Source of the DNA: Anthoceros angustus
Taxonomy: Eukaryota; Plantae; Anthocerotophyta
Direction of reading: 5' to 3'
DNA: 64,000 nt
NCBI GenBank assembly: GCA_010909165.1
Contig: MU008162.1
Location: forward strand, 310,001-374,000
Part shown: one piece after another, positions 10,463-43,624 of the stretch
How positions within the stretch are numbered: the first letter of the stretch is position 1
Layout: every line of letters starts with the position of its first letter
Made by a program: the position numbers and the translations under genes
Notes under the pieces: generated by a model
The model's input: the letters and a program-made list of their open reading frames with translations, nothing else
The model's database searches: none
What the model was told of the DNA's origin: nothing

Positions 10463-10470
10463 GCGGGAAA
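10463..10470 (-). promoter_or_regulatory. E2F/DP binding site TTTCCCGC upstream of ORC3
   Basis: Exact E2F consensus ~77 bp upstream of the inferred ORC3 ATG. Replication-licensing genes are established E2F targets. Confidence 0.65.
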
Positions 10471-18662: not shown

Positions 18663-18681
18663 TAAGGAGGCTCTGATACCA

Positions 18682-18853
18682 TAAGGAGGTTGAGCGGAGC
18701 GAGAGCGTAGAGAAACTCTAGTAGTTAAAATTACAATAATGAGCATAACAAAATTGTTTAAATATTATGTACGTGTCTATTCACTAAGACAACCCTAATC
18801 CATATAACACAAAGATTATTAACTGTGCGTTAGGTTTAACTCCTGCGCTAACA
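18682..18853 (-). repeat. 3' LTR of Copia A
   Basis: Direct repeat of 40462-40633, adjacent to PPT. Confidence 0.95.
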
Positions 18854-19016
18854 CCCCCTCTTAAACTAACCACGGTTAAGCAAAACACGAAACCACAGCG
18901 AAGGACTTCTCACGAGAACCGGTACTGGGCGTCACGAGGAGTCCTCGCTGAACGTAACCCGGTGGTTGGGCTGGCGATCCAGCTTTTGATCTGCAATCAA
19001 GGCTGCGACTTTAAGG

Positions 19017-19356
19017 ATGGAGCTCCATCTGGCTGTGCTCACCGCCAAATCTCAACTCGCGCTCTTCATCCTCACGCGTCTGTGGATTCTGTGGATTCAC
19101 AACTCGATTCAGTTGCCCAAAAGCGTCCGGGAGGATATGGCGGGCGGGAGTGGAGAGCCGCTCTTGCAGCCAACACACACGCATTGGTGGATACCACGTG
19201 GAGCTGAATATTTCACTTGTGTGGGGCAAGATGGCAGAAGAAGAGGTCGCTGTTAACCTACCCACACCTGCTAAAGACAAGGAGGGCAAGCAGAGCCTGG
19301 TGGAGCAACTAGAGGGTGTAGCGAAGATGCTCAGCAGGCTGAGGGATGAGGAGTAG
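19017..19356 (+). CDS. Antisense accessory ORF of Copia A (frameshifted)
   Basis: C-terminal WG..AVNLPTPAKDKEGKQSLVEQLEGVAKMLSRL aligns with the antisense ORF of element B. The start position is uncertain. Confidence 0.5.
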
Positions 19357-21273
19357 GGTTGCCCAGGGCACAGGCAGCCAGGTGATTAGGTAGGTCGTGG
19401 ACGCTTCATCCACCTGCTCCTGTTCCATCTGCTGTGAGTGAGGGTTCATGGCGACTGATACTGCCGTTCCTTGTGCAGGCTCAACCATCTGGCTGCCGGG
19501 GAGTGGCAAGTTTAATGAATCAGGAAGCAAAAGGCTTCCACCCCCCCTTCAACACCTCCAGATAAGAAGCATCACCAAATAGGCGTAATAATCCCATGAT
19601 CCCATGCCTTCCATATGATAGTAGTGCTTGTACTTAGGCAATCCTTTCGTAAGGATGTCGTATGTTCTCATCTGCATGTAATCCAATTTAAGGATACCTC
19701 TGAACCACATCCGTATGTAATGATGTTGCACTTCAATGTGCTTCGTTCGAGCATGGAATTTCGAGCTTTCAACTAACTCAAGGCTGCGGTGTTGTCGCAG
19801 AGCACAAGGGTTGGTTTCTCCTAGGGCCCCAAGTCCTTGAGAAAGCTGCGTTCCCATTCACCTCTTTGCTTGATTAAAGACTTGTACTCGGCTTGAAGAA
19901 CTCGAGAAGACGCTTTTGCGGCTCCATGTATCTTGAACCTAGCAAATAACAATACGTGGATAGGCTCTGCGTGAATCGAATCCACGCCCATCGGCATCGG
20001 TGAAACCCCTCAAGATAAGTTGTTTTGTCCTGTGCTCTTGTACATAAGTCCATACTTGTGAGTACCTTTGAGATAACGAAATATTCTCTTGACTACGGTA
20101 CCCTAAGCGGATTTTCTAAGAATCGCAAACTGCTTTCTAACATAATATGTCGAAGGCCCGTTCGAACGAAAATTAGGGACCCCATAGCATGCACATGGTA
20201 TGTCCTGCATGTCCAATTTCTCCTTGTGATGGGCACTGCACTTGGTCGATTTTGTACCAAGATAAGGAGTGGTGGCCCGGCCTCGCCAAGGTTGAATCGT
20301 TTGAGTATTTCATTTATGTACTTATACTGGTGGATAAAGAGTAACCCTTCTTCCCTTACACGAAGCAGTTGTATTCCAAGACAGAAGTTAAGCTCCCCTA
20401 TGTCTTTCATGTCGAATCTGCTGCTGAGTTTGTCCTTCACACTTGCTAACAGCTTTTGATCGTTTGTAGCAAATATGACGTCATCCACATAAAGAGCCAG
20501 GATGACGATCGAAACTCCTTGTGTGAGCTTGTACACGTTGCTGTCAGCTGTATTTTGGATGAAATCGATGCTGATCAGGTACACGTGCATTGTAAAGTAC
20601 CAGACACGCCCGCTTTGTTTCAAACCGTATATGCACTTCAGAAGCTTTAAAACTTTGTTCGGGTGCCGCTTGTCTTCGTAGGCTTCAGGCTGCAACATAT
20701 CTGACTCTTCTTCAAGGGCACCATATAAGAAAGCTGCAAACATCCATTTCTTTGTAAGTCCAGATCAAATTCGGCAGCATATGCAAGAAGGATTCTTATG
20801 GACTGCGTGCGAACGACGGGAGAGAAAGTCTCTTGGTAGTCGAGACCTTCAACTTGGGTAAACCCACGAGCCACTAACAAAAATAAGGAATGCTGAAGGT
20901 ATGTCAAGGCAGCTTGACATTGCGTACACAAGAGCCAGAAACCTTAAGAGCAACAATCAAAAATGTATTGTGTGTATTGAGAAGTAACAACGAGTCATTT
21001 ATATAGGCTAAACCTAATACGTCTAGGTTAACATTAATATACCTAACGTATATTTTTCATACTCCCACATAACCTAGGCAGTATTTGTGAACAGGATAAC
21101 ATATATCTCGTGAAAACGGAACGGGAAAACTCAAACGACGGGTTCTTCAACTCGCAGAGTCTGAGAATCAGTGAACAAAGGGCGGCGACAGCACCAGCAC
21201 TACGTCCCAGCTACTTACAGTCATCGCGCTCGTGATAGCTGTGTTCTGCATCATCATTCAGTGGCAAGAGTCG

Positions 21274-21675
21274 ATGGCGACGAGGAGCGGGGCAAGGTAC
21301 CAGCCTGTGGAGGGCGATGAGCCAAACGCCAGAGAAGGAGGCAGGAGGAAGAAGCCTGCGACCAAAGGCGAGGCGCAAGCCCATGGAGTGGAAACCTTTC
21401 AACCTGCAACACTATGTGAGGAGTTGTGGCTGGGAAGTGGAGGTCGCGGCGAGTGTTGCGTGAGGAAGACCCTGGAGAGCAGCAAGCACACCTTGCATGC
21501 TGTGAAGGAAGAGGTGATAGACCTAGGGGACGTGCCTGCAGTGGACCCCCTCAAAGGCATGAGGGTGCGCTGGGGTGAAGCAATCAACACTCCGCTGCCA
21601 GCGGAAGATGGAGAAGAAAAGAAGGTCCCTGCAGAAGTCATGAAACTCTCGAAGGAGATGTACAGGCTTTTATAG
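21274..21675 (+). CDS. Antisense accessory ORF of Copia B (133 aa, MATRSGARY...)
   Basis: Open ATG-to-stop frame between RNase H and the 3' LTR. The C-terminus is homologous to the antisense ORF of A. Confidence 0.6.
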   Translation: MATRSGARYQPVEGDEPNAREGGRRKKPATKGEAQAHGVETFQPATLCEELWLGSGGRGECCVRKTLESSKHTLHAVKEEVIDLGDVPAVDPLKGMRVRWGEAINTPLPAEDGEEKKVPAEVMKLSKEMYRLL

Positions 21676-21925
21676 AAAAACAAAGGGAAAAGGACGCAAG
21701 ACTAGGTAACGACTGATGGCTTCATCCATGCTCCTTCTCCTATGTGCATGAAGGTGCGGACTGACCAAGAAATTGCGCTTATATGTGCCACAGGACACAA
21801 TTAGCTGTAGGAAATGTAGGAAGGGATGCCAGCTCAGGCTGCAATCTGTAAACCTAAGTTACAAGGAGGTTTTTGAGATTAAAGGACACAGGTCCTCACC
21901 CCTCCCACACACTTCAGGTCAGTTG

Positions 21926-23123
21926 TTACTTACCAAGTAGGTGACTGAAATCTTTGAGCCCTAAGGATTCCATATGTAATCTGTGCTTCAGCTTGGGCAG
22001 TGCCTTAGTCAAGATATCAGCTGTGTTTTCAGCAGTAGGGACATATGTCACCTTGATAACTCCTCTTGCAACAGTATCTCTGATATAGTGGTGCTTGATC
22101 TCAAAATGTTTTGTCCTTGCATGAAAACGTGGATTGGCGACCAAGGCAATTGCTGAGCTATTATCACAATGAAGGACAGTGGGTTCCAGCTGCTCAACGT
22201 GAAGATCCTTCAGATAAGCACGCTCCCACTCAGCCTCCTTTGCAGAATCCGTTAATGAAATGTATTTTGCTTCAGTTGAAGATAACGCAATGGATTGTTG
22301 CTTCTTGCAGGACCAATTCACAGGCACAAGCTAAAAGGAAGCAATATGTGGAAAGGCTCTTCCTTGAATCTGAGTCTGAAGCCCAGTCAGCGTCAGTGTA
22401 TGCAGAAAGTTTGAGGCTTGAGGGTGATCCAGCTTGGTAGAAGAGCCCAGTTGTCATAGTGCCCTTAAGATAGCGATATATCCGCTTCACGCTGCCCAAT
22501 GAACACGTCCAGGTTTCTCCATGAATTGAGACACAGCACTAACTGCATATGAGATGTCTGGTCTGGTCCAATTGGAGATAAAAATTAGGCAGCCTACTGC
22601 ATGCCTGTAAGGTACTTTCTCCATATCAGCAATCTCTTCAGCAGATGTGGCACATTGGTCCGCAGTTAACTTGACTCCCACAGAGCCTGGAGTTGATACT
22701 GGACGGGCTTGATCAAGTTGAAACCTCTTCAGAATCTCAGTTAGGTATTTCTTTTGATGAATAACAATCAGACCTGCTTCTCTGCGACGTAGAACCTGAA
22801 CACCTAGGCAGAATTTCAACTCTCCCACATCCTTCATCTCAAATTCTGTACTAAGAAGGGTTTTAACAGTAGCTAGAATGGATGTGTCTGTGCAGGCAAA
22901 GATGCAGTCATCTACGTAAATGGCTAGGATGCAAAACGCTGAACCATCTACAAGATAATACACTGAGGAGTCTGCAGCACTCTGAACAAAGCCTAGCTTT
23001 TTAAGATGAGTATCCAACCTTTCGTTCCAAAGCATGGCACTTTGCTTTAAGCCATACAAGGCCCTTAAAAGCTTGAGTACCTTTCGTGGCCATTGCTTGT
23101 TGACATAACCTTGGGGTTGTTCC
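21926..23123 (-). CDS. Copia B pol 3' part (RT + RNase H, frameshifted)
   Basis: ALYGLKQS, LAIYVDD, TRPDISYAV, YTDADWA, SSTEAKY, CDNSSAI and FHARTKHFEIKHHYIR. Confidence 0.9.
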
Positions 23124-23722
23124 TGATGAGAATCAATAGCTCTTAGATAGAAGAGAAACAATGGAATGAATTGATTAATGAGTAAAGTACAAGCCTTTAA
23201 ATAGGCTGGGTGGTAGGGTGGTTACAACAATATGTTGTTGTAACCATAAGGTTGCAACCATAAGTTGTTGCAACTATAAGTTGTTGTAACAACTAACAAC
23301 TAACTACCTAAAGCCCTAGCTCTAAATTAATGTTTAAGTAATGAGGCCCTAATGAATAGTGCCCTAAGCTAGACCTATTTCATCACTCCCACTCACTATG
23401 AATGTAGGGGTGAATTCTAGCTTCAAAATGAGGTCTAAATCGTAGATAGACTCCCACTTAATAAAAAGTTATAAGCCTAAAAGTCCATAAATAAGCCAAA
23501 ATTGAGCCTAATATGAGCCATTAAAAGATAAATAAGCCAAAATAAAGCCTAAAATAGGAAAATAAAGCCTAAAATAGGAAAACCTATAAAGGCTATAAGG
23601 TATAAGCCCATGGCTTATCCTAATCAAACCGCCGGCCACCGATTGGTGGTTAGGGGCATACGGGCCGCCGCCGGCCGCCTACAAGCGGCCGGGGAGCCAC
23701 CAGCCGCACAGGTGGCGCTCAT

Positions 23723-23779
23723 CGCGCCGCGCGCGCCGCGCGCCGCGCGCCGCGCGCCGCGCGCCGCGCGCCGCGCGCC
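23723..23779. repeat. (GCGCGCC)n heptamer microsatellite in a CpG-rich island inside Copia C
   Basis: About 7 perfect units read directly from the sequence. Confidence 0.9.
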
Positions 23780-23969
23780 ACGCTGGTGGAGCCCGCCCCG
23801 CACTGGTGCGCCGCTGGCCGGGCCGCTCCGGCCGGGCCGCTACGCACTGTGCATGGGCGCCTGCACTCGTGCGGTGAGGTGATCTTGCTGAGCTCACAGG
23901 TGGCGCTGCTGATAAATGTGTCTCGTGTTGTTGCAGTTATTGTATTAATTTGCGCAAAATTGGAGTGGA

Positions 23970-24587
23970 ATGCGCGATATTGGTGAGTCCATTTTGCTTT
24001 TAATGTTTTTATATCCATTTGCATTGTCATCCCATTTTCCATTTTCATGCATTTCCATGTCTCATGCTTGTGAATAATACATGCTAATGTGGTGGCAGTC
24101 CTCGTGTGGAGGAAGGCGCCCCCCCATGCTCCAAAGGACGAGGCCATAAAGAAAATGAAGAGAGCAAACCGAGTAGCAAGAAGGAGAAGAAAACTTGCCG
24201 CACGTGGAGAAAAGGAGAGATTGAGCCGGGAAGCCGCCCGGGGGCGCATCTTGTGGTATAGAGAGGCACTTGCACGGGGTGAAGAGATCCCGATGTCGGG
24301 CCCCGGCCGTAATATAGGAAATGATATGGAAGATCCTAATTTCTCTTGTGAATTCCTGCAAGCATGTGCCGAGGTGGCTAAAACATGTGGAGAAAAGGCC
24401 GATGGAGAAGAGGACGTCTTGGTGGTACAAGCACTCCGGAAAACCGATGTTGTCATCAAAGAAGTCGAGGGGCTGGTAAGCCAATAAAAATGCAAAATAA
24501 ATTGCAATAAATAATTTGATTGCATAAAAATACTAATGATTGTTGATGTAGATAATCCAACTACCGAGGGCCTGGAGTATATCCTGA
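23970..24587 (+). CDS. Spliced antisense gene within Copia C (exons 23970-23982, 24099-24475, 24552-24587)
   Basis: Donors GTGAGT (23983) and GTAAGC (24476), branch-like CTAAT in both introns, AG acceptors at 24097-24098 and 24550-24551. The introns are AT-rich and flank a purine-rich open exon; splicing gives MRDIVLVWRKAPPH... Confidence 0.55.
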
Positions 24588-27500
24588 GTGTCCCAGGTAT
24601 GACGACTTCAACATAGAAGAAGAGTCGGAGGTCGGGGACTCCATAAACAGAGAGGCCCCCAGCAGTGTGTGAGGGCAGCCCGGAGAGCATATGCTAGCCG
24701 ACATAGGAGAAGTAGGGGCTAGGGAAAAGAAAAGTGAGTAGGTGTAAAACCTATAGTTAGGGGCTAGTAACTAGTGTAACCTATGCTAATGATAAGCTAA
24801 TCTACATCTATTTTGCGGATGTGGAGAAAGGGTAGGCACAAGCCATGTGAGGTTTGCCCTACCTCTACAACCTATAACAAAACAAAAGGAAAATACCAAA
24901 CTCCTATTTGCCACCGAAACCTATGCGAGCAACATACATGGTGCTTAGGGAGGAAAGGACGACCACGAAGTCCCCATGGAATATGTATGTGAGAAAAGGG
25001 ATAAAAATGATGTGGTTAGGTGCATATCCATGTGAAGAGTACGAAGGACACACCAAGCACTTGTATAGTAAGTGACCTAACTTCAGAATGACTAACTCGA
25101 CACCATTTTTCTTCTGTAACCCATGGAGTGTTTTGTAGGGTCCTTTTGGGCATTAGAGAGAGAGAATAAGGAGTACAGTGATGATTACTTGGAAATAGAA
25201 GAGGAAATAAACATGCTAGATAAACTTTGTGGATTGTAAAAATTTGAAAATACCCACTAGTTAGCTGGCTTAACCTCTTGTACTCCTAACATTTTCATGT
25301 GTTTTAAATGCAAATCTCTTCCTAATGACTTGGTTAAAAGGTCAGCTGGGTTGTTTTGAGTTGGAATATAATTGATATCTATTGTTTTATTTTCTAACAT
25401 TTCCGTATGTAATGATACTCATCGCTATATGTTTAGTTCGAGTGGAAAAGGTTCCTAGCTAAGGCAATAGCCCCTATCATCAGAGAGGTGTAGGTCCATC
25501 TTGGGGATAATTCAACTCACTCAATGCTAACCTACTCCACTATATCCTTGGAGACGAGGTGAGGACCCTATACTCGACTCTTGACAAAGCAATGGTTGGT
25601 TGTTTCTTACTTGACCATGAAATGGGTGCACCTCCTAGCGAATGCATAGCCGGATCTGATTTGCGGCTATCGGGATCTCCAAGATAGTCGGCATCGGCAT
25701 AAGTCGTTAATTGTAACTTAGATATGCCGGAACATGTTTATACATCAATCCTGTGCATAGTCCCTTTTAAATACCTGAATATTCTCTTGACACATTGCCA
25801 ATGTTGTCTTCCAGGATTCTCCAAAAATTGTGAGACTGCACTAACTTCAAAAGATATATCGGGTCTTGTGAAGTTACTTAAATATATTAAGGTGCCAACA
25901 GCATGTCTGTATGGTACTGCTGACATTTCTGCTTTCTCTGCATCTGTTTTAGGGCTCATATCTGCTGTAAGCCTTGTGCCACTTGGAAATGGTGTGGCTG
26001 CTGGCTTAGCATCTTCTAGTCCAAACTTCTTTAAGCTTTCTTTTATATATTTTGTTTGAACCAAGGAAATGGATTTATTACCTCTATTTCTTATAATGTT
26101 AACGCCAAGGGCATAACTAAGGTCTCCCAGGTCTGTCATTTCATAATGACTTCTCAACCATGCTTTAATTTCAGCTAGATGGGAGAGTGAAGATGAAGCT
26201 AAAAATAAGTCATCCACATATAGTAAGAGGTAAATTGTAATCGTTTAGTCTTCGGGATATACATGCTAGCATCCGCTTTGCTTTGAACAAAACCATATTT
26301 TGTAAGCTTGTCATGTATATCATTATTCCATTCCTTGCCGATTGCTTAAGGCCATAAATGCCTTTAATGAGCTGCATACATGGTCTTCTTTACCTTTGAC
26401 TTCATAGCCTTGAGTTGTCTCATGTATATTTCTTCTTGGATTCGCCATGCAGATAGGCGCTTTGACGTCCATCATGTGAAGATGTAAGTCATGTTGAGCG
26501 GACAAGGCTATTATAATTCGAGGAGGCAAACTTTGCTACGTGCATAGGTAGCCGGTATGTAATCTAAACCCGGTATCGGTAAACCCTCCGCTACCAGCCT
26601 TGCCTTATATCGCTCAATAGAACCATCACCCTTACGTTTGATTTTAAAGACCCATTTACTTCCCACTATTTTTCTCCCTTTGGGTGGTTTAACTAATTCC
26701 CATGTGGAGTTTTCTACTAAAGAGTTGTATCAATCACTGCTACCTTCCATGTGTCTTTCTCGGAGAGGAAAATGCTTGTTTCAAGGTTAGCGGTTCCTCT
26801 GGATCAACGTGGCTTTGTAAACTTGATAATAAGGTGTGAGAGGAGAAATGGGGTCATCGAGTGACAAGATATCCCAAAGGTGGTTCCTTCCATCCAGCAG
26901 TCCTGCAATGGTCTAGTCCTAAGATTGTACCTTGGTGCGTTGTTGAATGTGTTCTTCAATGTCGACCACTTGTTGAGTGGTTCTGCGTAACGCAGCTCTT
27001 GTTCGCTCGTCGTCGAATTCATCCACTTGCTCGCCGACGGGCTCATCCTCAAAGGAATACGATCCTCCTCACGAATTTCAACATCATAGTCGATTTCATC
27101 ATCGGTTAAATGTTGAGGTTCTTCTAAATCGGGATCCGGAGTAGTTGGTCGTCTTGGAATATATTCTAACTCCTCCTCCTCCTCCGCAATGAGGTTCATC
27201 CATAGGAGCTTCATGCGGAGGGAGTGAATGAATGATGACAAAATCATCGTCATCAAAGTGGAAGGCTCGGATGCGCAGAGGAAGGAGCATCGGGAGTAAT
27301 GGGAGATGCCCCATAATAGGAGAAAGAATATGAGATTCATGAAAGGTCACGCTCCTAGCATAAATGAGCTTTGGGTAGATGGGTCAAATAACTTGTAACC
27401 CTTAATGCCTTCGTAGCCAATAAAGGTATATTTGGCTGCCTTGGGATCCAGCTTCTTGTACTTTGGGGATGAACACATAGCGGGGATCCAAGATTCGTAA

Positions 27501-29871
27501 ATGATCAATGAAGGTTTTCTCCCGGAAAAGCTTCATATGGAGTCATGCCTTGACTGGAAGTCGGTCTATTAAGGAGATATGTTCTTTGTCAATATAGCTT
27601 CAATAACTTTTAGATAATGTAGCTTGGGTGAGCAAACACTGTGATCTCCTGAGGCGTAAATTTTGTTTTACCTTCCATTTCTTTGAGTGTGTGTACCACA
27701 CTAAGTTGTTGCGCTATACCTTGGGCAAAATTCAGCAAATTCATTGAAGTGAACTCTCCTCCATTATCGGAGCGAAGAGTTTTAAGCTTCTCGGTAAGTC
27801 TCTCGCCACATCATATATTCTTTGAAGAAAGAAAAGGCGACTCTTATGGCGGAGGATGTAGGTGAGGACGAACCGGAATAATCATCGATGAAGGTTAAAA
27901 ATATCTACAACCACTAAATGAAGGTGCGATATCGGACCACAAATGTCTGTGAACCAACTCTAAGGGTGCCTAGCCCTCGAGGATGGATTGTGGAATGGAG
28001 CTTGATGACGTTTGGTTATGACGCAAGCTTCACACCAGGGGAGAGGTTCAAGTTTAGGAATACAGGGAGTTCTATACAGGTTTCCCTTAGACATTTGGAT
28101 AAGCTTTTGGCTATTCGGATGACCTAATCGACAGTGCCAAAGCATGGTGCTTGAAGAGTGGAATGGGAGGCTACATTGATGAGGTGTAACGGACCCACTT
28201 GGACTGAGAGTTTATAGAGTCCATCTTCTAGTGTGCAGGCAGTTGTGTGATACTTATTAGTATGATAGTAAAGGAGACACAAATCGGCTTCAAGGATAAT
28301 TTGCATGTTATGTTCTTGACATAAACTAGCGGTGACACTAGATTCTTGCACATGGAGGGTACATAAAGGACATGGAGAGAGTAAGAACCCGGTGGAGCAC
28401 TTTAATGCCACGGAACCTACACCAAATATGGTGAGGTTATGGTCGCCTAGAGCACCTTTGTTGTCCTTTTGATGGCGAATCGACTCAAAAAGTTAAGGTC
28501 GTGACATATATGAGATGTTGCACCTGTCTAAATACCAATTTTGGTTTGATGGCTTGGAACTTGCCAAGCGGGGATGAAATCTTGATGGAGTTGCCGTGGA
28601 GGGCTTCTTCTTAACGGCAACATGTGCTCCTGTGGTGACCTCCTTCTTTGGCTCACCATTTTTCTTCTTCCAACAATCCTTCTCCATATGGTTGGTCATC
28701 TTGCACCAATTGCAGGTAACTCCAGCCTTCTTCATTCCTTTTGAAGGTTTAAATGAAGAAGTGGATGTTCCTTGAAAATTTTGAGCAGGAGTCGGTCTAG
28801 GAGTGAAGTTTCCGCGGCCTCGGCCACGTCCTCTTCCTCTGCCCGCGTCATTACTTGGCGGGCTGATCGGGATTTTCATTTCGACGGCGCGTCCTCCTCA
28901 ATAAGTGCTCCAATTAATTCACTTACGATATCCAGTGAGTTAATTTCTTGTTTTGTGCAGCTCTAAGGACCGCATTTTGCGTTGTCACAAAGGGCCTATA
29001 GGAGGGCGGCAAGCTGGCGAGGAGAGCAATAAAAGTTTGTTTCTCTGTAAGTTTTTCTTCAGAGGATGCATTGAAATTATTCTTTGCAATACGGAAGTTG
29101 CTCAAGTGTTGTTGTAAGGAATCAGTCTCCTTCATCCTTATAGTATATAAGTGACGTGTGGCAGTCAATAAGCTCATTCCATCTTTGGAGGCATAAAGCT
29201 GAGCTAACTTCTCCCACATCTCGGCTGCGGTGTTTGCGTCGCAACTTGGAGTACCATCGCGTAAGTCCGTTCATTAAAACGCGTCTGCCTCCGATCTTTG
29301 GCTTCCCATTCATCTATAGCGTCGGAGTCCCAAGTGGAACATTCTTCAGTACCGTTGACAATATTCCATAAGTCGCGGCTGCGCAGGACACCTTGGGCAC
29401 GATTTTGCCATACATCGTACCCCTTGCCGTTAAATCTATCTTTGTCTTTAAAGTTGTCACCTTGAATCATTTGAGGCTTGGATTCATAACGCTTTTTAGC
29501 TTTCTCCTTTTCTTCCCTTTTAAATTGCTCCCATTCATCTCGCCATATAGATTGTTGTTCTTCAAGCCATTTGGTCTTTTGGGCGGCCAAAAATTTTGCT
29601 CTGCGCCGAAGTCATCAATATCCACGTCGAGATCGTCCGACCCCACCATTGCAAGTAATTTTAATGATGCAGGTTATGCGTGGTTGACACGTCTTCTTGC
29701 ATTGTTTTGCGGAAAGAGGCGAGCACAACATTTCTTCAAATTATGAATTTCGCATCATAATCGAATCTGCAGACTTACAATCAAGTGAGAAGAGACCTTG
29801 TGAAAGGTCTCGGTCAACAAGTCTATCGTTGATAATATTGATTTGTTGTGTATTGTAAGTCAATTTCTCAT

Positions 29872-32320
29872 TGATAGCAGAGTGATTTATTCTAAGTTAC
29901 GCTCTAATGGAATCAAGAGATTGCTGCATGATCCGGATTAGGAGCGAAGATACTAGCCTTATTTTTATGTACTTAGAGATGGCGACTCTATAGCACTATA
30001 TTGATAAAGGCTAAATGTAGAAAGGAGAGCTTTCTGAGCATAAATGATATCTTGTACTCTATCTCCGACTTAGACAAAGGGCTTCAATGAGACAACATAC
30101 TTGTGCCTCTAAAACATCAACTGAGGAGAATTGAGGTCAAACTCCTCCCGAATGTAAGAAGATTTGATTTGATGTTGTTTCTTCTTCTTTGAAGCCTTGA
30201 TCTTCCTCCTAAATTCTTTGTCTTTTGGATTAAAGGAATCCATGAGAGGACAAGAAATTGATGCACAATGTGTGCATCATTGTGCGCTGGTCACCGGATG
30301 ATTCTCAAGGCGAAATCTCCACGCATTATCTTCATTTGAAGTACTACAAACGCAAAAGCATTGGAGAGTAAATTGCCTAGAGCATAAGGAAGCGAGGTGC
30401 TCAAGCACAAAGAGCTAAATGCTCGATACCATGATGAGAATCAATAGCTCTTAGATAGAAGAGAAACAATGGAATGAATTGATTAATGAGTAAAGTACAA
30501 GCCTTTAAATAGGGTGGTTGGGTGGTTACAACAATATGTTGTTGTAACCATAAGTTGTTGTAACCATAAGTTGTTGCAACTATAAGTTGTTGTAACTAAC
30601 ATAACAACTAACTACCTAAAGCCCTAGCTCTAAATTAATGTTTAAGTAATGAGGCCCTAATGAATAGTGCCCTAGGCTAGACCTATTTCATCAGTTCCAT
30701 GTATATCTCCTCTTCAATTTCACCATGTAAAAATGCTGTGCATACGTCCATTTGGTGAAGTTCTAGGTTGAGTTCAGCAGCAAGAGCAAGGATAATTCTA
30801 ATACTCTGTGCTCTGACTACAGGAGAAAAGGTCTCCTGGTAGTCAAGGCCAGCAACTTGACTGAATCCACGAGCACAAAGTCGAGCCTTGTAGCGGGCGA
30901 TTTCACCATCAGCATTCAGCTTTGTTTTGAAAACCCATTTCGACTTCTTGGTTTCCGCCCTTGGCCGTCCTTAAGTACCCAAGTATTGTTCTTGATGATA
31001 GATTGATATTCCTCCTCTCTGCGGCTTGCTGATGAGCATCCGTCCAGAGTAAGCTTCATCCATAGGCGAGGTCTAGATATAGGGAGCACGGCCAATGATA
31101 GCGAGTGATTTATTCTAAGTTACGCTCTAATGGAATCAAGAGATTGCTGCATGATCCGGATTAGGAGCGAAGATACTAGCCTTATTTTTATGTACTTAGA
31201 GATGGCGGACTCTATAGCACTATATTGATAAAGGCTAAATGTAGAAAGGAGAGCTTTACGAGCATAAATGATATCTTGTACTCTATCTCGACTTAGACAA
31301 AGGGCTTCAATGAGACAACATACTTGTGCCTCTAAAACATCAATCGAGGAGAATTGAGGTCAAACTCCTCCCGAATGTAAGAAGATTTGATTTGATGTTG
31401 TTTCTTCTTCTTTGAAGCCTTGATCTTCCTCCTAAATTCTTATGCTTGGATTAAAGGAATCCATGGAGCGGACAAGAAATTGATGCACAATGTGTGCATC
31501 ATTGTGCGCTGGTCACCGATGATTCTTTGCTAGAAATCTCCACGCATTATCTTCATTTGAAGTACTACAAACGCAAAAGCATTGGAGAAAATTGCCTAGA
31601 GCATAAGGAAGCGAGGTGCTCAAGCACAAAGAGCTAAATGCTCGATACCATGATGAGAATCAATAGCTCTTAGATAGAAGAGAAACAATGGAATGAATTG
31701 ATTAATGAGTAAAGTACAAGCCTTTAAATAGGGTGGTTGGGTGGTTGGGTGGTTACAACAATATGTTGTAACCATAAGTAATTACAACCATAAGTTGTTG
31801 CAACTATAAGTTGTTGTAACTAACATAACTAACTACCTAAAGCCCTAGCTCTAAATTAATGTTTAAGTAATGAGGCCCTAATGAATAGTGCCTAGGCTAG
31901 ACCTATTTCATCAGTTCCATGTATATCTCCTCTTCAATTTCACCATGTAAAAATGCTGTGCATACGTCCATTTGGTGAAGTTCTAGGTTGAGTTCAGCAG
32001 CAAGAGCAAGGATAATTCTAATACTTTGTGCTCTGACTACAGGAGAGAAGGTCTCCTGGTAGTCAAGGCCTGCAACTTGACTAAAACCGCGAGCACAAAG
32101 CCGGGCCTTATAGCGGGCAATTTCGCCATCGGCATTGAGCTTTGTTTTGAAAACCCATTTACAGCTTACTGGTTTCCGCCCTTCTGGCAAGTCTGTAAGT
32201 ACCCAAGTATTGTTCTTGATGATAGATTGATATTCCTCCTCTACTGCAGCTTGCCAGTGATGAGCATCTGGTCCAGAGTAAGCTTCATCCATAGAGGCAG
32301 GGTCTAGATATAGGGGAGCA
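29872..32320. repeat. ~1.22-kb tandem duplication (29872-31095 / 31096-~32320) giving a third C LTR at 31651-31913
   Basis: The C leader, C 5' LTR, GTTCC TSD and B RT segment are repeated twice. Confidence 0.9.
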
Positions 32321-35291
32321 CTCCCAGGGACAGCGGTGTGAGCAGAGTGCCTGTTGCGGAAATCAATGGACTTGTAGGGCTGCTCCTTCCATTGTTCCCG
32401 AGGGACTCGTGCTCTCAAATTGTAACGAGGAGGGGAAAGATCAGCAGGGGGTACTTCAACCTCTACAGGGTGTAAATCCTCCTCCTCTGAATCAGCAAGG
32501 GCAGCCTGGTTTTCTGGGAGCTCAGGTGGCACATGTTGCCAATCATAGTCTAGATCCTGGTCTGGATTAGGATTGTCATCAACATGCTCATTGATGGGAT
32601 CAGGAGGGAGATCAGGGGGATCAATAACAGGGTCTGCTGGATCTGGAAGGTGAACTGCAGGCGGTGGTGGTGTAGGGGCATCATCTGGCACACCACCTTG
32701 GGGAAATATAGAAGGGGGTGTGGCAAGAACATCTGTTAAAATGGATTCATCATCTGATGAGTCAGAGTCTGAAGATGGCTGAACACCAGCATGTGGGGAG
32801 GCAGAATTTAGCAGCTCTTTGAAAACAACACTGCGTGCAAGAACAGGGGTAAGTGTAGAGATATCTATCAACCTATATGCCTTAGCTTCATCTCCATAGC
32901 CTACAAAGATCAAGGCTCGTGATCTGTTATCAAGTTTCTGACGCTTTTCTGGTGGGATGTAGGCATATGCAGGTGAACCAAAGACTCGAAGGTGCAGGAT
33001 GCTAGGATTTCTTCCCCAGAACATTTCAAAAGGTGTTTTACCTTGAAGTGAAGATGTGATGAGGCGGTTAAGTATGTAAGTGGCAGTAGTGAGGGCCTCT
33101 GCCCAATACTCTGCCGGCAAAGATGCCCAGCTAAGCATACTGCGAGTCATCCCCATGAGGGTTTGGTTCTTTCTCTCCGCAACCCCATTCTGCTGAGGGG
33201 TGTAAGAAACAGTAAGTTGACGTAGAACACCATGATCCTGAAGGAAGGCATCAAAGGTATTGTTGCAAAACTCAGTCCCGTTGTCAGTACGCAAGCATTT
33301 GAGCAAACAGCCAGACTGCCCTGGGCCATGAGAAACCACTCTTTAAAGCATAGAAAAGTCTCACTCTTACGAGACATGGTATATGTCCAGGTAAACCGGC
33401 TAAAATCATCTGTTATTGTAAGATAGTAAAAAGCTCCTCCTAAAGATTGTGTTTGCAGTTTACCAGAGATGTCGGCATGCACAAGATCAAGCAGGCCAGA
33501 AGTTCTGAAGGCGAGATGTGGAAACGACTTCTCCTTCTGTTTAGCCAGCAGGCAAGCCTCACATATAGGTAAATCTTTGAAGCATGAAGGTAGAGGCTCC
33601 ACATAGCAGTCTTGTGTAGACATCTTGATGAGTGAGTTTTTATTGACATGCCCAAGGCGGGCATGCCATAACTTGGCTTGTTCACTGGCAGGTAAATGAG
33701 CTGGAGAAGTTGATGTGATAACTGGCGCTCCAGAGGATGTCTCACAGATCACGTCCAACCGATATAGCTCCGAATCAGGAACACCACGGCCAATACACTG
33801 CTCACTAGTGTTACGCCTGAAAACTTCACATGTGGTGCCATGAAAACGGAACTCCAAATTATGGTGAATCGCCAAGAGCCTGACTGACAGAAGATTCTTT
33901 GCCATGCCAGGAACATAAAGCACCCCTGGCACATTGAGAGCTGAATTGTCAGTCATAACGAATCGACAAGTACCATAGCCTTTAATAGGTAAGCTTGTTG
34001 AACGCTGCTCATCTCCAAGGAGAACAGATTGTGTGGAATCTGTGAGTTCTCTGAAACTGCTGAACAACTGTTTGTCTTTGCAGATGTGTGCTGTCGCGCC
34101 AGAATCCAAAAACCAGTTGCTAGGATCACTCGAAGAAGAAGACAAGCAAATGGTAAGGATCTTCACCACCGCCTTGCTATTGTCATGTTGAGATCTCTCC
34201 TTCGCAACTGAATTGACTTCAGGCTTGGGACGGCGGGGCTCGCCGGCTTTCTTTTTGCGGCAGTCCCTCTCCCAATGCCCTGGCACATTGCACCAATTAC
34301 AGCTGCCAGGTTTCTTTGTAGAAGACGTACCAGCAGTGGAGGTTTGTGGGCGAGAAAATGGTCGTCCACCAGCTCCTCCTCTACCTCTCCCTCTCCCAAA
34401 GCCTCCACGCTGACGTGAGGTGTAGAGAACTCTGTCGGTACGTATTTTGCTGGAGCCACTCGAACTGGTTCGAAGTCGGCTTTTCTCCTCTTGATAAAGG
34501 GCAGCAATCACAGTCTCCAAGGAAAAATTGCCAGGCTGACCAGCAGCTATGTTCTGACCGGCAGCTGCTAATGGACCATTTTGCAGAGAGACAAAGGTCT
34601 GATATGATGGAGGAAGTGTAAGCAAAAGATGGGCCACAGCATCCTCCTCTGAAATTATGGAATTCAGCTGAGCAAGGCGGGATCGAAGTTGTCGAAATTT
34701 GCTGGTGTGGGCAGCCACAGTATCACCCTCTCGCATTTTCAAGGTATAAAATTCATGCTGCACAGTGCATTTAGTCATCATCGTCTTGACAGCATATGTG
34801 TTGATTAGCTGATTCCAAATTTGGTGTGCCTTTGTATGGTTTTCCACATCAGGGATGAGCACTTCGTCGAGGCCTGTGACCAAGATGGCAACTGCAATCT
34901 CATTCATTGAGTTCCATTTGGCTACATCAGCCTGTGTGACTTGTGTGTCTCCAGTTGCTAAAACTGTTCCTGAAGCAGGGAGCACAGGCTCCTTATAGCT
35001 GCCGTCAACGACAGTCCACACGCCTCTTGCACGCAAGGTAGTCTGCATTCGAACTCTCCAAACTTCAAATTTAGTGCCATTGAACCTATCTTGGCCTTTT
35101 AAATCCGTTGTGAATGATGGAGTAGACATGCTGACCACTGAAAACGACTGTGCAAGAGGGACGAGTGGAGGCGCCGGGGGAAGAGGTACCGGAGGTGGAA
35201 TAGGTGGTGGAGTAGAAGGGGAACTACCCAATTCACGTTGACGACGAAGGTAAGGAGACAACGGAAAATTCAGTAGATCTCTTGTAGACAT
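31914..35291 (-). CDS. Copia B gag-pol 5' part (Gag, protease, integrase, start of RT; one frameshift near 33330)
   Basis: CNWCNVPGHWERDC knuckle, WFLDSGAT, LWHARLGH..CEAC, LRTDNGTEF, PQQNGVAERKN and RYKARLCARGFSQ. Confidence 0.93.
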
Positions 35292-35579
35292 ACAAAGACA
35301 AATTCACCACATAACAGGTAAGAACGGTTAGGTCTAAAAAGACATTTTTAGGGTTTGATTGAGACTTCAGCAGAAAAAAGGCTAACTTAACTCTACTGAC
35401 TTCTTTTCTAGGACACGATTGGATTCAGGTGAAACGGTTAGTAACCGTCTGCGAGGCATCAGCGGAAGGAAGGGGCAAGATGGCCTTGGAAATCACGTAG
35501 TAGAAAGGGGAAGGCCATGGAAATCAAGGAACATCTGAGAACAATGATGCCAACACTAGAAAAGGTCACAAATATTAGT

Positions 35580-36137
35580 TCAATCTGATCGCTCCTCATC
35601 AGAGGAGCGAAGGGTCATGTTCAACATCTGCAATTGTCTAGAAATTACACTAATTCCAGATGAAAATGTAGAAATCATTTTCTGAATTTTAAAATCTGCA
35701 GAATCCAAGCGCTTAGAGAATGTCTCTTGCCGCTGGATGACTGCATTCAGGGTACCTTCTAACACTTGTACCTCTGATTCAGAATTCAATGAGTCACTTG
35801 CAGATGTACTGGCTGGCTTGGTACATGGTTGCGGTGCTGAAATTGGCCTCTTTAAAAATGGCTTTGCTGAGCAGGGATCCTTCTTAAGCAAACTCCCACA
35901 ATTGCAGCACGGAACAACAGTGCCAATTGTAGCAGGTCTGTGATGCTGATTATTACGGCCTTTGTTGCGCCGATAATTCTCCAAGATTAGAAGGTCACGC
36001 TCAGCCTTGGTTTCTGCACCGGTCCACGGGATGCTGGTTGGAATGCCTGAATGTGGATTGAGGAAAGCTGGTCTAGAGAAGGTCTTAGAAAATCCTCCTC
36101 AGCCACCAAGTCCGCAATTCGATCTATTTCTCGGCAT
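35580..36137 (-). CDS. ORF0 of Copia B: extra sense ORF between PBS and gag (186 codons, one internal TGA at codon 13)
   Basis: MPRNRSN... starts ~30 nt after the PBS. Its C-terminal helical segment VLE-x6-I-x8-R-x12-STFS is shared with the leader of element C. Confidence 0.55.
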
Positions 36138-39100
36138 TGCAACCTATAGCATCATCAGCAGCATTGTTTGCTCTGATACCATAACAAAAATAAGGAATGC
36201 TGAAGGTATGTCAAGGCAGCTTGACATTGCGTACACAAGAGCCAGAAACCTCAAGAGCAATAATCAAAAATGTATTTTGTGTATTGAGAAGTAACAACGA
36301 GTCATTTATATAGGCTAAACCTAATACGTCTAGGTTAACATTAATATACCTAACGTATATTTTTCATAGCCACGAGCCTTGCTTTGTATCTCGCCACTTG
36401 TCCTTGTGCATTAAGCTTGATTTTAAAAACCCACTTACAGCTGATTGCCTTTCTTCCAGGTGGGAGGTCTGCAAGTGCCCAAGTCTCGTTTTTAATGAGA
36501 GATTGGTACTGTCCTCCACCGCAGCCTTCCAATCGCTCACCTGTGGACCAAGAAAGGCCCCGCTGTAAAGTGGTAGGCTCATCCGGAATATCGTGGCTAG
36601 CTGAGCTGGCGCAACTTTAGCAAAAGAGGTTCTACGAAAATCAATAGACTGGTAGCGGGGCTCTGCCCATTGGTCGGGAGGGGGCCTGTGACGAGTAGAA
36701 CGTCGGCAGCTCCTCCGGTGGCTCGCCGCCAGGGCAGCATCAACATGATCATCAAGCGCATTAAGAGCATCCCCCTCGTTATGCGGAATGGGAGAGCATC
36801 CCCCTCGTCATCTGGAGGGTAGTGATCGCCCAAATCAAGATCCGGGTCATCCTGCAGATTGAAGTTGTCGTGATGACCAGTAGCAACATCAGGGTGAGGC
36901 ACGTCAAGTGCGAGGTGGTTGATCATCGGCAAGAATATCATCGGTGTTCAACCGCGAAATCCTCCACCGGACAATATCTTCGTGATCCATATCGTCAAGA
37001 GGGTAAGTGGAAGCAGCCCCTCATTCTCCAAGTCATCCAGTGTCTTTTTCGAGATGTTCGAATCAAGTATCTGCCCCTCAGATAGGATTGTGGAGCAGGG
37101 CTTGTGGCTCAAGGAAAGTCACACCGAGCAAGCAACATGGATCCAGTTAGGATTGTATGCCTTGTAGGCTTTAGTTAGTTCCTTGTACCCAACAAAACGC
37201 AAACCTTGTGCTCGAGGGTCAAGTTTCCGCCTTTTCTCAATGTATGTAAGCAAATGCCTGATCCAAACACCCGCAGATGTAGCGTGATGGTTTCTTGCGC
37301 CAAAAGACCTCATAAGGTGTTTTGTTGGGAATCGAACTTGTCAATATCCTGTTAAGGATGTAGGTTGCTGTCACCACAGCCTCCGCCCAATAACCTTGAG
37401 GTAAACCTGCCCAGATGAGCATGCTTCTAGTCATCCCGAGTAGAGTTTGATTTTTGTGTTCTGACACACCATTCTGTTGGGGTGTGTAGGGAACCATAAG
37501 CTGCCTGAGAATTCCATGCTCCTGGAGAAGACTGTCAAAAGATGAGTTGACGAACTCCGTGCCATTGTCAGTCCTTAGAGTTTTGACCAGCATTCCAGAT
37601 TGCCTTTGTGCGATTTGAAGCCAGTCCTTAAAATACTCAAAAGTTTCACTCTTTAGGCGCATGGGGAATGTCCATGTATACCTACTATAATCATCTGTTA
37701 ATGTGAAAAAGTATTGAGATCCACCCAAAGATGGGGAATGGATCTTGCCTGAGATATCTGCATGGACTAACTCAAGTACTTGTGTGGCTCTTTGTGCAGT
37801 GCATTCGGAAAGGGTAATTCCTTCGCTTAGCTAGAATGCACGACTCACATTGAGGTAAATTTTAAAACACTTGGGCGGGGTTCTCGTGACACTGTAATGG
37901 ACATATCAATCAATTTTTCTCACATGTCCTAGTCTCGCATGCCACAAGACCGCTCCTTTCGGGAGGAGGTACCAGTGGAGTGTACAACATGTTGACTAGC
38001 TTCTGTTGTGAGCAGGTTATGTCCAAGCGGTAAAGGGAGTTATCTAAAATCCCTTAAAGACACACCTACTAGGAGATTCCTTTCTATAAAACAAGCGGCT
38101 TAGAATCGATACATAGTGAAGGTGGGCGCATGAGTCGACTCATCGACATGAGGTTTTTAGCCATGCTAGGTACGAAGAGAACATCTTCGATGGTGAGGTC
38201 TGTTATCTTCGGATGGAAAACACACGTGCCTCGCCTTCAATATGCAGACTAGTTCTAGGCGCTCATCACCAAGGAGTACCTTTTCATGGACATGAACAAG
38301 GTTGAGTGAGGTAAACAACTCCCTCTTTTTGCAGATGTGTGTGGTAGCCCCGGAGTCGAGGTACCAGCTCTCATCATCATGTGTCGAGCTTGACAAACAT
38401 ATGGTGAGGATCTTGACTGGCGCCTTTTCAGCAGGTTTGTCCTTCACTGCAACACTTGCAGCAGGTTTAGCCTGCTTCTGGGGCTCACCAGCTTTACGCT
38501 TGCGACACTCGCGTGCCCAGTGGCCAGGTATGCCACACCAGTTGCATGTGCCTGGTCGTTTAGAACTTGAAGATTCAGTCCTATCCTTGGCTTGTCCTGG
38601 GAAATTTCCCCCTCTGAATTTGCCCTTTCCTTTAGGGCGAAAATTCACAGCGAAAACCTTTTCCCCTTTGGATTGCTTGTGCAGCAGATGCCAAACGAGT
38701 TTGCTCTTCTTGGTAGAGAGCTCCGATCGTGTCCTCCATGGTAATGGGGCAGCGGTATCACGGCAATCAGCAGACCGATCTGGAAACTTGTAACGAAAGA
38801 TTGATAAGAGGGTGGTGGTGAGGAGTTGGGAGATAGCTTCGACTCATCATTTGTGTTTTGGTGATGGATGAATTTGTGCTCAAGGTGGCGAAACTTGCTG
38901 GTATGTGCGACCATTTTGTCTCCTTCCTTCATGCGTAAAGTGTAGAATTCCATGCAACTGTGACAATGTGGCCATTGTAGTGGTGTGATAGGTCTTTTCC
39001 AGCTGATCCCAGATGTCCTCCGCGTTGCAAGAAATTCTACATTAGGGATAAGTGCGGCATCCCATTGACAATGACCATAGCAACTCCATTATTGTGCTCC

Positions 39101-40461
39101 CACTTGGCATACTCGGGTTTAGATTGTGGGTCGGGTTTGAGAGAACCATCAACACTAGACCCATACACCACGCTATAAGTATGGTTTTCATCCGGACACG
39201 CCAGATTGAGTAGCGACCTCTAAACTGTCCTTGTCCTTTACATCCGAACTAAAAGAGACAAAATGAGTGGCCATGTTGATCCGGGGTTTGGGTTGCGAGG
39301 CTCAAGTTATTGAAGGCGTTGATCAATGCATTCAATTTGTGGACATAAGGCACCTAAAGACAAAAACTATGGTAGTTCTTTGGGCGGTAAGTGCTCTTAT
39401 GCTCAAGCGCTAGACTATGTCTCTTGCAGACTAACAATGCGTGTCCAGGGGGCAGGTGAGGTGGCGGCTGAGGGGGGTAAATCTGACGTATCTAATCCCT
39501 CACAGGCTAGCTCCTCATCCACCTTCCTAGGTCTTGGCAGTGTGAACAGACACCTCCTTTCAAGAAGAACGTTTAAGTTACATCGTTAGGGTTTCAGACC
39601 AACATTTGCATGACATTTCAAGTCACAAGAAAATATGCTCAAAAAAACAAAACCCTAACTGTCATGTCCCTTGCCTGTGAACAGGTGCAGCTCTACACAA
39701 GAACCTATCAGCACACAAGAAGAGAGATTAAACGAAAAGGCACCGTCTAAAAGGTGACGCTTCAGATCTGAGCAGAAAAGTGCTCCTGCTCCAGGGCGCT
39801 CCGCTCAATGGCAGCGGAAGATCTCACAAAGCAAGAATGGGCTGATCATCATCAGCATGTGGGCACCCAAGCTCCAATTCGGATTTTTAGGTGCATCATT
39901 CGCAAGAATTCGAGATAAGTCATTGATGTCCTCACAATTTCGTTCTTGCAAGTTGAAATTGCTTGCTCGTGTCGATCAAGAGTCTCCACTCATTCTTGAG
40001 AATCTCCTGGTTGGAAAGTGATAGGACAACACTTTTCCACATCGAATAGCATGTGCTCTATCGACAATGTTTGACCAGCGATTTGTCTTTGTGTGTGCAG
40101 GTGGGGCCGACGGAAGATTCAGCCGTCAGGCGTCGAATGTCGAGGCGGTCTGAGAATTTGTTGGAGGTAGAATAGGTCGGGATTCGCCCCTTCAGCAGCT
40201 CCAGAGCCTGTCAATTTGTTGGTTCCTATTCAACTCCCAAGATGGGCGGTGGTATCCCTTTGAGCAATGAATCAGCTGCCAAAGACGCAGGGTAATCGTG
40301 TTCATAAAGGTCAAGCACCGTATCAAAATGGTGCTATATTTTGTCTTGGTGGGCGTCCCTCACGGCGTTGTCTTTGTGATGATCCACGCGTAAACCTCTA
40401 TTAGATCCTCTCGGCATTTTTAAGAGAATCACTCAAGAACCAAAGCATGGCTCTGATACCA

Positions 40462-40633
40462 TAAGGAGGTTGAGCGGAGCGAGAGCGTAGAGAAACTCTA
40501 GTAGTTAAAATTACAATAATGAGCATAACAAAATTGTTTAAATACTATGTACGTGTCTATTCACTAAGACAACCCTAATCCATATAACACAAAGATTATT
40601 AACTGTGCATTAGGTTTAACTCCTGCGCTAACA
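40462..40633 (-). repeat. 5' LTR of Copia A
   Basis: Direct repeat of 18682-18853, followed on the element strand by the iMet PBS. Confidence 0.95.
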
Positions 40634-41200
40634 AAAAGTAGCATGGCCCTCCTGCTCCATTGGTCCATACAAACCAAGCGCCTCTTGGCGTGCATACCCA
40701 CCAATCAGGGCAATCCATGTCACCACATCCTTTGTGGCCATGCTGTCAAAAACCCGGCCGCCGTGCATCTTTCAGTTCACCAAATTTTGCATAAATGTGG
40801 AAAAGGCAGGTGACCACCTGCATGTCATCCAGCAGTCCCTCTTTCAACAATCATTGAGTGCATGAGCTGCCTGCCCTTCTGTAAGGCACCAGTGCTTACA
40901 AGGCCTTGAGAAGGCAGGCCAAAGTAACAAGATTACACAAAATCAGCCCCTGCTGCTCCATTTGTCCATACATACAAAACAAGTGCCTCATATCCGAGCC
41001 CTTGCTCGACATACTCAGCTATCAGTGCATTCCATGTCACCAGGTTCTGTGTTCATGCAGGCCATCAAAAGTCTGGCGTGCATGTTTCAGTCCATCACAT
41101 TTTGCATACCTAGATACCAGGGCATTCCATGTCACCACACTCAGCTTAGCAAGTTGAAGATGTAGGCCTTGCTGTCAAAAACTTGGCGTGGCGAGCAAGC
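40634..41200 (-). pseudogene. 5' part of the degenerate PLS-class PPR gene
   Basis: ARQVFD, VVTWNALVSRYAKC, NLVTWNALIAEY, LLKA..GALQKGRQL and YAKFGELKDA..VFDSMATKDVVTWIALIGGY motifs with frameshifts. Confidence 0.8.
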
Positions 41201-43620: not shown

Positions 43621-43624
43621 CAAG

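What the first reader, a model, noticed from the sequence alone, without database searches (positions are those of the whole stretch)
18682..40633. Copia lineage with a three-gene architecture: ORF0 + gag-pol + 3' antisense ORF
Seen in sequence: three different nested Copia families with unrelated LTRs all carry a long leader (~0.8-1.2 kb) with an extra sense ORF before gag, and a 0.7-1.9-kb tail with an antisense ORF after RNase H. The accessory proteins are recognisably homologous between families. Established: canonical Ty1/Copia encode only gag-pol, and Sireviruses add a sense env-like ORF. Inference: protein-level conservation across diverged families implies selection, so this may be an undescribed accessory-gene system (candidate roles: anti-silencing, copy-number control, targeting).
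Basis: partly seen in the sequence, partly recalled or inferred. Interest (0 to 1): 0.82.

Follow-up and report, generated by a model that had tools for sequence, protein, structure and literature searches.

The report
Nested Copia elements with extra genes
Three young, related Copia-type jumping genes sit inside one another and all have unusually long stretches before and after their normal genes; two show an above-chance backward-facing reading frame that likely encodes a small regulatory protein, but the extra forward frame is demonstrable in only one of them, so the three-gene design is shown for one element and only suggested for the lineage.

Summary
The nest is real: Copia C sits in B, B in A, all on the minus strand, LTR pairs 97-99% identical, with 0.8-1.2-kb leaders and 0.7-1.9-kb tails; RT-RNase H groups the three (98/99). 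B, the only clean copy, carries a 172-codon leader frame (1/1000 shuffles) and a 166-codon antisense tail frame (9/1000); C has a 137-codon antisense frame (4/1000) between intron-like segments. A and C carry about 10-14 frameshifts per kb, so ORF0 is not visible in them. Cross-family homology holds only for the A-B antisense region (3/300 at protein level, 3/300 at DNA level); ORF0 homology reduces to a 10-nt start motif shared by A and B. No database homolog, fold or RNA evidence was obtained; dN/dS was impossible (no genome held). Best reading: a Copia version of the accessory-ORF layout known from Gypsy Ogre/Retand/Grande, the antisense product likely a small nuclear regulator. The scan noted the same layout on another piece of this genome (e1-10596204); its chromo-shadow idea found no support here. 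New variant of a known kind; interest 0.5.

The parts
40462..40633 (-). Element A 5' LTR (172 bp, TG...TA ends), followed by PBS 40449-40461
39275..40448 (-). A leader, about 1.17 kb; ATG at 40417 in a 10-nt motif shared with B at the same offset from the LTR; no open sense frame above chance (error-rich region)
36369..39274 (-). A gag-protease-integrase-RT start, 10-14 frameshifts per kb; interrupted by B
39586..39658 (.). Two telo-boxes (AAACCCTAA, one per strand) in the A spacer before gag
36182..36368 (-). Element B 5' LTR (187 bp, TA...TA ends), PBS 36170-36181
35580..36137 (-). B ORF0: 185 codons from ATG 36137 with one internal stop at codon 13, then 172 open codons; basic segment, CxxC motif, probable C-terminal helix
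35348..35356 (-). Telo-box in the B spacer between ORF0 and gag
31903..35303 (-). B gag-protease-integrase-RT start (first ATG 35291), about 0.5 frameshift per kb; interrupted by C
31093..32335 (.). Second copy of a 1.22-kb tandem duplication (first copy 29869-31092) spanning C leader, C 5' LTR and B pol; likely assembly artefact
30432..30693 (-). Element C 5' LTR (262 bp, TG...CA ends), PBS 30421-30431
29612..30420 (-). C leader, about 0.8 kb; no sense frame above chance
25257..29611 (-). C gag-pol, about 10 frameshifts per kb
23970..24587 (+). C antisense gene model: ATG 23970, candidate introns 23983-24098 and 24476-24551, main exon 24099-24475 inside the 137-codon open frame 24074-24487; K/R-rich N-terminal half
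   Evidence: splicing is inferred
23124..23385 (-). C 3' LTR
21926..23123 (-). B RT end and RNase H
21706..21793 (+). B intron-like segment 30 nt after the antisense stop (AG|GT, CTGAC branch-like, CAG|G), alignable to the A segment
21175..21675 (+). B antisense ORF, 166 codons stop to stop, 133 from ATG 21274
20875..21061 (-). B 3' LTR
19560..20869 (-). A RT end and RNase H (end approximate)
19382..19478 (+). A intron-like segment (donor at 19382 or 19390) after the antisense stop
19015..19356 (+). A antisense frame, 113 codons; only its last 35-60 codons align with B
18682..18853 (-). A 3' LTR

Best explanation
A, B and C are three recently inserted families of one Copia group whose long tails carry an antisense reading frame that is likely a real, likely spliced accessory gene for a small charged protein that would act in the nucleus on the element's own expression or silencing, and at least family B also carries a leader frame (ORF0) that is likely translated. 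Inferred expression scheme: the 5' LTR drives the genomic RNA, on which ORF0 is the first long cistron; gag-pol would need a shorter RNA started or spliced in the telo-box spacer; the antisense gene would be transcribed separately from the 3' LTR or tail, as shown for maize Grande gene23. Shown: structure, one RT clade within my sample, the three above-chance frames, A-B tail homology. Inferred: transcription, splicing, translation, nuclear location and role. I put a real antisense gene in the group at about 0.65, a real ORF0 in B at about 0.65, and homologous versions of both genes in all three families at about 0.25.
For: Frame length above exact dinucleotide shuffles for B ORF0, B antisense, C antisense (1, 9, 4 of 1000). 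With a codon model trained on B gag-pol, the proposed frame ranks first of six in 4 of 4 candidates and 2 of 2 pol controls; Fisher-combined p 0.0006, or 0.008 when the whole A frame is used. A-B tails align colinearly at DNA level over 350 nt (3/300) and in the antisense frames (best of 18 frame pairs, 3/300; ORF against ORF 10/2000), including an 88-89-nt segment with donor, branch-like and acceptor motifs in register, in the length and GC range of 10 host introns; in A this is the best intron-like structure of the tail (0/300). A and B share a 10-nt motif holding the ORF0 ATG exactly 45 nt from the LTR end (5/5000) and telo-boxes before gag (3 of the window's 4 matches; 0.58 expected). Broken frames in A and C are explained by sequence error: 23 frameshifts but 1 stop in A gag-integrase despite LTRs 170/172 identical. 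K/R clusters are seen directly in the C and B antisense frames. Grande gene23 has its own promoter and a nuclear product (PMC7264820).
Against: No sense frame above chance in the A or C leader, even allowing 2-3 stops; B ORF0 finds no homolog in either although power was 34/40 at 20% identity. C antisense protein shows no similarity to A or B (522 and 1345 of 2000; A+B profile 180/500). A antisense frame length is not significant (222/1000). Under exact dinucleotide shuffles the codon signal of B ORF0 and B antisense drops to about 100/1000, the A segment was chosen after seeing the alignment, and the model failed on a host exon control, where a wrong frame scored 0.103. Nominal p near 0.01 also arose in off-target comparisons (2 of 30; C leader antisense intron score 4/300). 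Intron scores for B (45/300) and C (21/300) are not significant and the C candidates score only 5.0 and 10.8. The longest extra frame of all, a 324-codon sense frame in the C tail (1/1000 by length) has no codon signal (529/1000), which shows that length alone can mislead here. No homolog.
Confidence: 0.5

Rival explanations
1. Only family B has both extra frames; A shares just the antisense gene with B, and C acquired an unrelated antisense gene independently. The layout is a convergent patchwork, as for the heterogeneous extra ORFs of SIRE, not a conserved three-gene system.
For: All homology signals involve A-B only; C groups outside A+B in RT-RNase H and is unplaced in the integrase tree; C tail is twice as long with a different intron layout; REXdb Copia extra ORFs fall into 45 unrelated groups.
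Against: B and C tails gave a weak DNA match over the antisense frames (2/300); B ORF0 against a 79-codon frame in the second C leader copy gave 63/2000; 10-14 indels per kb in C lower sensitivity.
Confidence: 0.3
2. The leaders and tails are non-coding regulatory DNA or RNA (promoter, packaging or termination signals, antisense non-coding RNA for self-silencing); the open frames are by-products of composition and the A-B similarity reflects a shared cis element.
For: The best conserved A-B stretch lies after the stop codons; a sense-frame match of score 42 comes from the same DNA; a 324-codon frame without codon signal exists in C; no protein homolog anywhere; PMC7264820 discusses antisense RNA as a regulator in itself.
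Against: Three frames exceed exact shuffles in length and four rank first in codon use; the conserved segments do not fold better than shuffles on either strand (z -1.1 to +0.3); no Rfam match.
Confidence: 0.15

Closest known systems
Ogre (Ty3/Gypsy, OTA/Tat): 5' sense extra ORF plus 3' antisense extra ORF (Neumann et al. 2019, PMC6317226; passages and supplementary tables MOESM4 and MOESM5 read)
   Same: Same three-part layout: extra sense ORF before gag (21% of elements) and antisense ORF after pol (60%).
   Different: Gypsy, 15 kb, antisense ORF often with plant mobile domain PF10536; here Copia order, 6.5-7.6 kb elements with 172-262-bp LTRs, ORFs under 190 codons and no Pfam domain.
Antisense aORF-3R genes of Grande (gene23), RIRE2, Retand, PvRetro13 (PMC7264820, parts 1-2 of 3 read; PMC11963269, passages)
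   Same: Antisense frame between pol and 3' LTR, no host homolog, basic clusters.
   Different: The named plant examples are Gypsy in REXdb terms where I could check (Retand); 97% of Retand clusters carry Transposase_28, not found here; the Retand paper's text does not mention introns (0 occurrences).
Copia extra ORFs in REXdb: SIRE eORF-3'F (74%, 3'R 1%), minor entries for Bianca and Ikeros
   Same: Copia elements with an extra ORF and longer internal region.
   Different: SIRE's is sense and 3'; no Copia lineage in the table is characterised by a 5' sense plus 3' antisense pair, but the survey counted only ORFs of 250 codons or more, and the column of the Bianca and Ikeros values is ambiguous in the file as read.
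Tekay 5' aORFs (PMC11728184, passages)
   Same: Extra ORF upstream of gag, helices plus disordered regions, no domain match.
   Different: Gypsy chromovirus, about 400 aa; conservation shown over 500 copies, which could not be tested here.

Membership tests
Ty1/Copia (Pseudoviridae) | gag-protease-integrase-RT-RNase H order with RVT_2 RT | tested here: met
   for all three elements
Ty1/Copia (Pseudoviridae) | Paired LTRs, PBS, PPT, 5-bp TSD | tested here: met
   met for B and C; A has LTRs, PBS and PPT but a 43-bp flank duplication in place of a 5-bp TSD
One lineage (A, B, C) | Monophyly of pol domains | tested here: inconclusive
   RT-RNase H 98/99 against 11 unlabelled Copia rows; integrase tree joins A, B, P0001 at 82/80 and leaves C unplaced; no REXdb reference rows
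Named REXdb Copia lineage (Bryco, Lyco, Gymco, Ikeros etc.) | Placement with reference RT/INT/RH domains | not testable with these tools
   REXdb domain file too large to read; best database relative 42% identical, next 23-26%
SIRE/Sirevirus | Sense env-like ORF after pol, about 10-kb elements | tested here: not met
   Elements 6.5-7.6 kb; no sense tail frame above chance in A or B; the 324-codon sense frame of C lacks codon signal
aORF-3R class (Grande/Retand type) | Antisense ORF between pol and 3' LTR | tested here: met
   B and C above chance, A by homology to B
aORF-3R class (Grande/Retand type) | Present and conserved in most copies of the family | not testable with these tools
   no genome held; one copy per family
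aORF-3R class (Grande/Retand type) | Own antisense transcript, nuclear product | not testable with these tools
   no sequencing run was listed
Retand/Ogre antisense proteins | Transposase_28 or plant mobile domain | tested here: not met
   no such Pfam match at E up to 0.1 and 10
Chromo shadow domain proteins | Match to the chromo shadow profile or fold | tested here: inconclusive
   no sequence match; models too poor for a fold search (pLDDT 49-50)
Ribosomal protein eS26 (for B ORF0 residues about 55-100) | Match to PF01283 above its cut-off of 27 bits | tested here: not met
   14.9 bits, E 0.038 on a segment chosen after the fact; PDB E 0.04-0.2, best hit not a plant chain and an unrelated protein close behind; A and C segments give no match

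The most novel reading that the evidence does not exclude
Probability: 0.2. Interest if true: 0.75.

Novelty: new variant of a known kind. Interest (0 to 1): 0.5.

Why it matters
Accessory genes of plant LTR retrotransposons are known mainly from Gypsy lineages and their functions are open. A compact Copia group with short LTRs that keeps a spliced antisense gene and a leader ORF would show that this retrovirus-like layout arose in both superfamilies, and that surveys with a 250-codon cut-off miss it. The small size makes the genes easy to tag or knock out in a seed-free plant model. The evidence here is one clean copy plus two error-rich ones, so the case is promising but not established.

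Tried and rejected
No genome is held for the window, so copy collection and dN/dS were impossible. No sequencing run was listed; this is no evidence on expression. Homolog searches for B ORF0 and B antisense found nothing at E 0.1 among near-length proteins (longer and shorter proteins not searched, C and A frames not searched); the ESM Atlas gave no usable hit; the 50%-representative search with B antisense returned 2 tandem-repeat proteins judged spurious. Locus scans with the gag zinc-knuckle alignment: 0 of 19 viral stretches, 31 metagenome loci and 2 genome loci; all are distant Copia (mostly 20-30% over gag) and none matches the accessory frames better than E 0.027. tblastx among leaders and tails gave no cross-family hit above 24 bits. 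A first DNA alignment with permissive scoring was uninformative. The first anchored-motif test used a mis-set offset (717/5000) and was redone from the LTR end (5/5000). AlphaFold models of B antisense (alone, and with A and C rows) had pLDDT 49-50, so no fold search was run; no complex job was sent. Rejected: the hydrophobic stretch upstream of ATG 21274 as a shared signal peptide (961/2000 against A, 94/2000 against C; no codon signal); the 324-codon sense frame of C as an env-like gene (it shadows the antisense frame, no codon signal, no Pfam match); a stable conserved hairpin in the intron-like segments; chromo shadow and eS26 membership (see tests). Literature searches found no description of a Copia lineage with this pair of ORFs; the library lacks most subscription papers, and REXdb Additional files 1 and 3, which list extra ORFs per element, could not be read and may bear on novelty.
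Full report
STRUCTURE. All three elements lie on the minus strand. A runs 18682-40633 (LTRs 40462-40633 and 18682-18853, 170/172 identical), B 20875-36368 inside A's RT (LTRs 184/187 identical, TSD GTGGC) and C 23124-30693 inside B's RT (255/262 identical, TSD GTTCC on +). Without nested parts they measure 6453, 6695 and 7570 bp. Pfam finds Copia gag, protease, integrase and RVT_2 in Copia order. PBSs are of the tRNA-Met type (label recalled). LTRs of different families do not align above shuffles. B gag-pol is 50% identical to A and 38-48% to C. In an RT-RNase H tree of 14 rows A+B have support 99/98 and A+B+C 98/99; in an integrase tree of 20 rows A, B and the Logan protein P0001 join at 82/80 and C is unplaced on a long branch. 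Loci lacking or too short for the domain were left out, and no named-lineage reference was available.

SEQUENCE QUALITY. Against B or outside proteins, A and C gag-pol show 9-14 frameshifts per kb in most segments (3-6 in three RT/RNase H segments) but few stops (23 frameshifts, 1 stop in A gag-integrase), whereas B shows 1 in 1.9 kb. With near-identical LTRs this points to indel errors of the assembly, so only B can be read directly. A 1.22-kb tandem copy across the C-B junction is probably an artefact too.

ARE THE FRAMES REAL? Against 1000 exact dinucleotide shuffles: B leader sense 172 codons (1), B tail antisense 166 (9), C tail antisense 137 (4), A tail antisense 115 (222). A and C leaders have no sense frame above chance with 0, 2 or 3 stops allowed (best 77/500). 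B ORF0 has an ATG at 36137 in frame, with one stop at codon 13. A codon model trained on B pol ranks the proposed frame first of six for B ORF0, B, C and A antisense and for both pol controls, but not for the 324-codon sense frame of C or the 79-codon frame of the C leader copy; it failed on a host exon. With exact shuffles the p values are 102, 104, 5 and 15 of 1000 (526 for the whole A frame; pol controls 21 and 85), combined 0.0006 or 0.008. This is moderate support for coding.

ARE THEY HOMOLOGOUS? Of 30 frameshift-aware comparisons, the A-B antisense pair scored best (0/100 and 1/100); two off-target pairs reached 1/100 and 3/100. Over all same-strand frame pairs of 8 region pairs only A tail/B tail passed (3/300). 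The DNA of the two tails aligns colinearly, 19144-19491 with 21458-21807 (3/300; B-C tails 2/300, A-C 74/300). C antisense protein matches neither. B ORF0 matches neither leader, although a simulated homolog at 20% identity with 12 indels per kb was found 34 of 40 times (12 of 40 at 15%). What A and B do share is AATGCCGAGA at the same offset, 45 nt from the LTR end, holding the ORF0 ATG (5/5000), and telo-boxes in the spacer before gag (3 of 4 window matches, 0.58 expected). Telo-boxes are activating 5' elements in plants (PMC3022908, abstract start in the search listing only).

SPLICING. A and B have an 89- and 88-nt segment in register about 30 nt after the stop, with AG|GT, a CTGAY branch-like motif and CAG|G; C has two candidates flanking its main exon, giving a 141-residue model from ATG 23970. 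A matrix from 10 host introns called by eye scores the A segment as the best of its tail (0/300) but not B (45/300) or C (21/300), and an off-target region reached 4/300. The segments are not unusually structured and match no Rfam family. Splicing is therefore plausible, not shown.

WHAT THE PROTEINS ARE. No homolog was found. The antisense products are small and charged with K/R clusters and no membrane segment from the ATG on. Chromo-shadow likeness found no support in Pfam or PDB and the models were too poor to search. B ORF0 has a basic segment, a CxxC motif and a helix-like C-terminus; 45 residues resemble eS26 at E 0.04, below the cut-off and not seen in A or C.

MECHANISM (inferred). 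ORF0 is the first long cistron of the LTR-driven RNA; gag-pol, 290 nt or more downstream, would need a shorter RNA, and plant Copia are known to make subgenomic RNAs by splicing (PMC5580714, abstract). [quoted passage not shown] Rivals: a convergent patchwork (0.3), non-coding cis elements (0.15), a chromo-shadow decoy (0.05).

COMPARISON AND NOVELTY. The 5' sense plus 3' antisense layout is documented for Gypsy Ogre and Tekay; among 16 Copia lineages REXdb lists extra ORFs only for SIRE, Bianca and Ikeros, counting ORFs of 250 codons or more (PMC6317226, passages and two supplementary tables; Additional files 1 and 3 unreadable). Retand (PMC11963269, passages), sunflower Tekay/Athila (PMC11728184, passages), lotus (PMC9804982, passages) and Ectocarpus (PMC12477816, passages) papers describe no such Copia. 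Eight searches found none either. The scan's own unchecked notes report the same layout on another piece of this genome and antisense genes in liverwort and fungal Copia; my elements had no sequence look-alike there. The host is called a likely hornwort in note e1-10596208; I did not test this.

VERDICT. Observation partly confirmed, interpretation partly supported. The three-gene layout is shown at the level of open frames for B, the antisense gene is supported for the group, and a conserved system of homologous proteins in all three families is not shown. New variant of a known kind; interest 0.5; boldest case probability 0.2, interest 0.75.

Noticed in passing
window 18620-18681 and 40634-40676: Element A lacks a 5-bp TSD: its 3' LTR is followed by a copy of the PBS plus 7 nt of LTR end, and a 43-nt host stretch is duplicated on both sides (42/43 identical). 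Either assembly stutter or repair-mediated insertion of a cDNA that kept its primer copy. The flank has ~105-nt repeats that look like PPR motifs (by eye, not tested).
   Followed up: partly
window 29869-31092 / 31093-32335: 1.22-kb tandem duplication across the C-B junction; in its pol part 18 of 24 substitutions fall on third codon positions, so one copy carries sequence of another B-family member. Likely an assembly or polishing chimera; it implies B is a multi-copy family under selection.
   Followed up: partly
window 18682-18853, 20875-21061: Non-canonical LTR ends: A is TG...TA, B is TA...TA, C is canonical TG...CA. Both types are known minor Copia classes (PMC9804982, passages).
   Followed up: yes
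window 35830-35975 (-): About 45 residues of B ORF0 resemble the N-terminus of ribosomal protein eS26 (E 0.04; 9 of the 10 PDB hits listed minus two unrelated chains are eS26: 8 of 10). Weak, below the family cut-off.
   Followed up: partly
window 23719-24693 (-): 324-codon sense frame in the C tail overlapping the antisense frame and a GC-rich 7-nt tandem array (23730-23783); no codon signal, no Pfam match.
   Followed up: yes
window 35129-35291 (-): B gag frame begins with a proline-rich extension of about 54 residues before the methionine that lines up with the start of A gag; C gag has a charged N-terminal extension.
   Followed up: no
window 2843-14390: Host genes: NAD-dependent epimerase-like gene, two alpha carbonic anhydrase paralogs flanking an ORC3 gene on the minus strand; introns are short (46-165 nt) and about 50% GC.
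   Followed up: partly
window 43600-60500: GC-rich (55-62%) region with a ~9.85-kb direct repeat (about 45300-49500 against 55000-59400); six long frames from it gave no Pfam match at E 0.01. Not explained.
   Followed up: no
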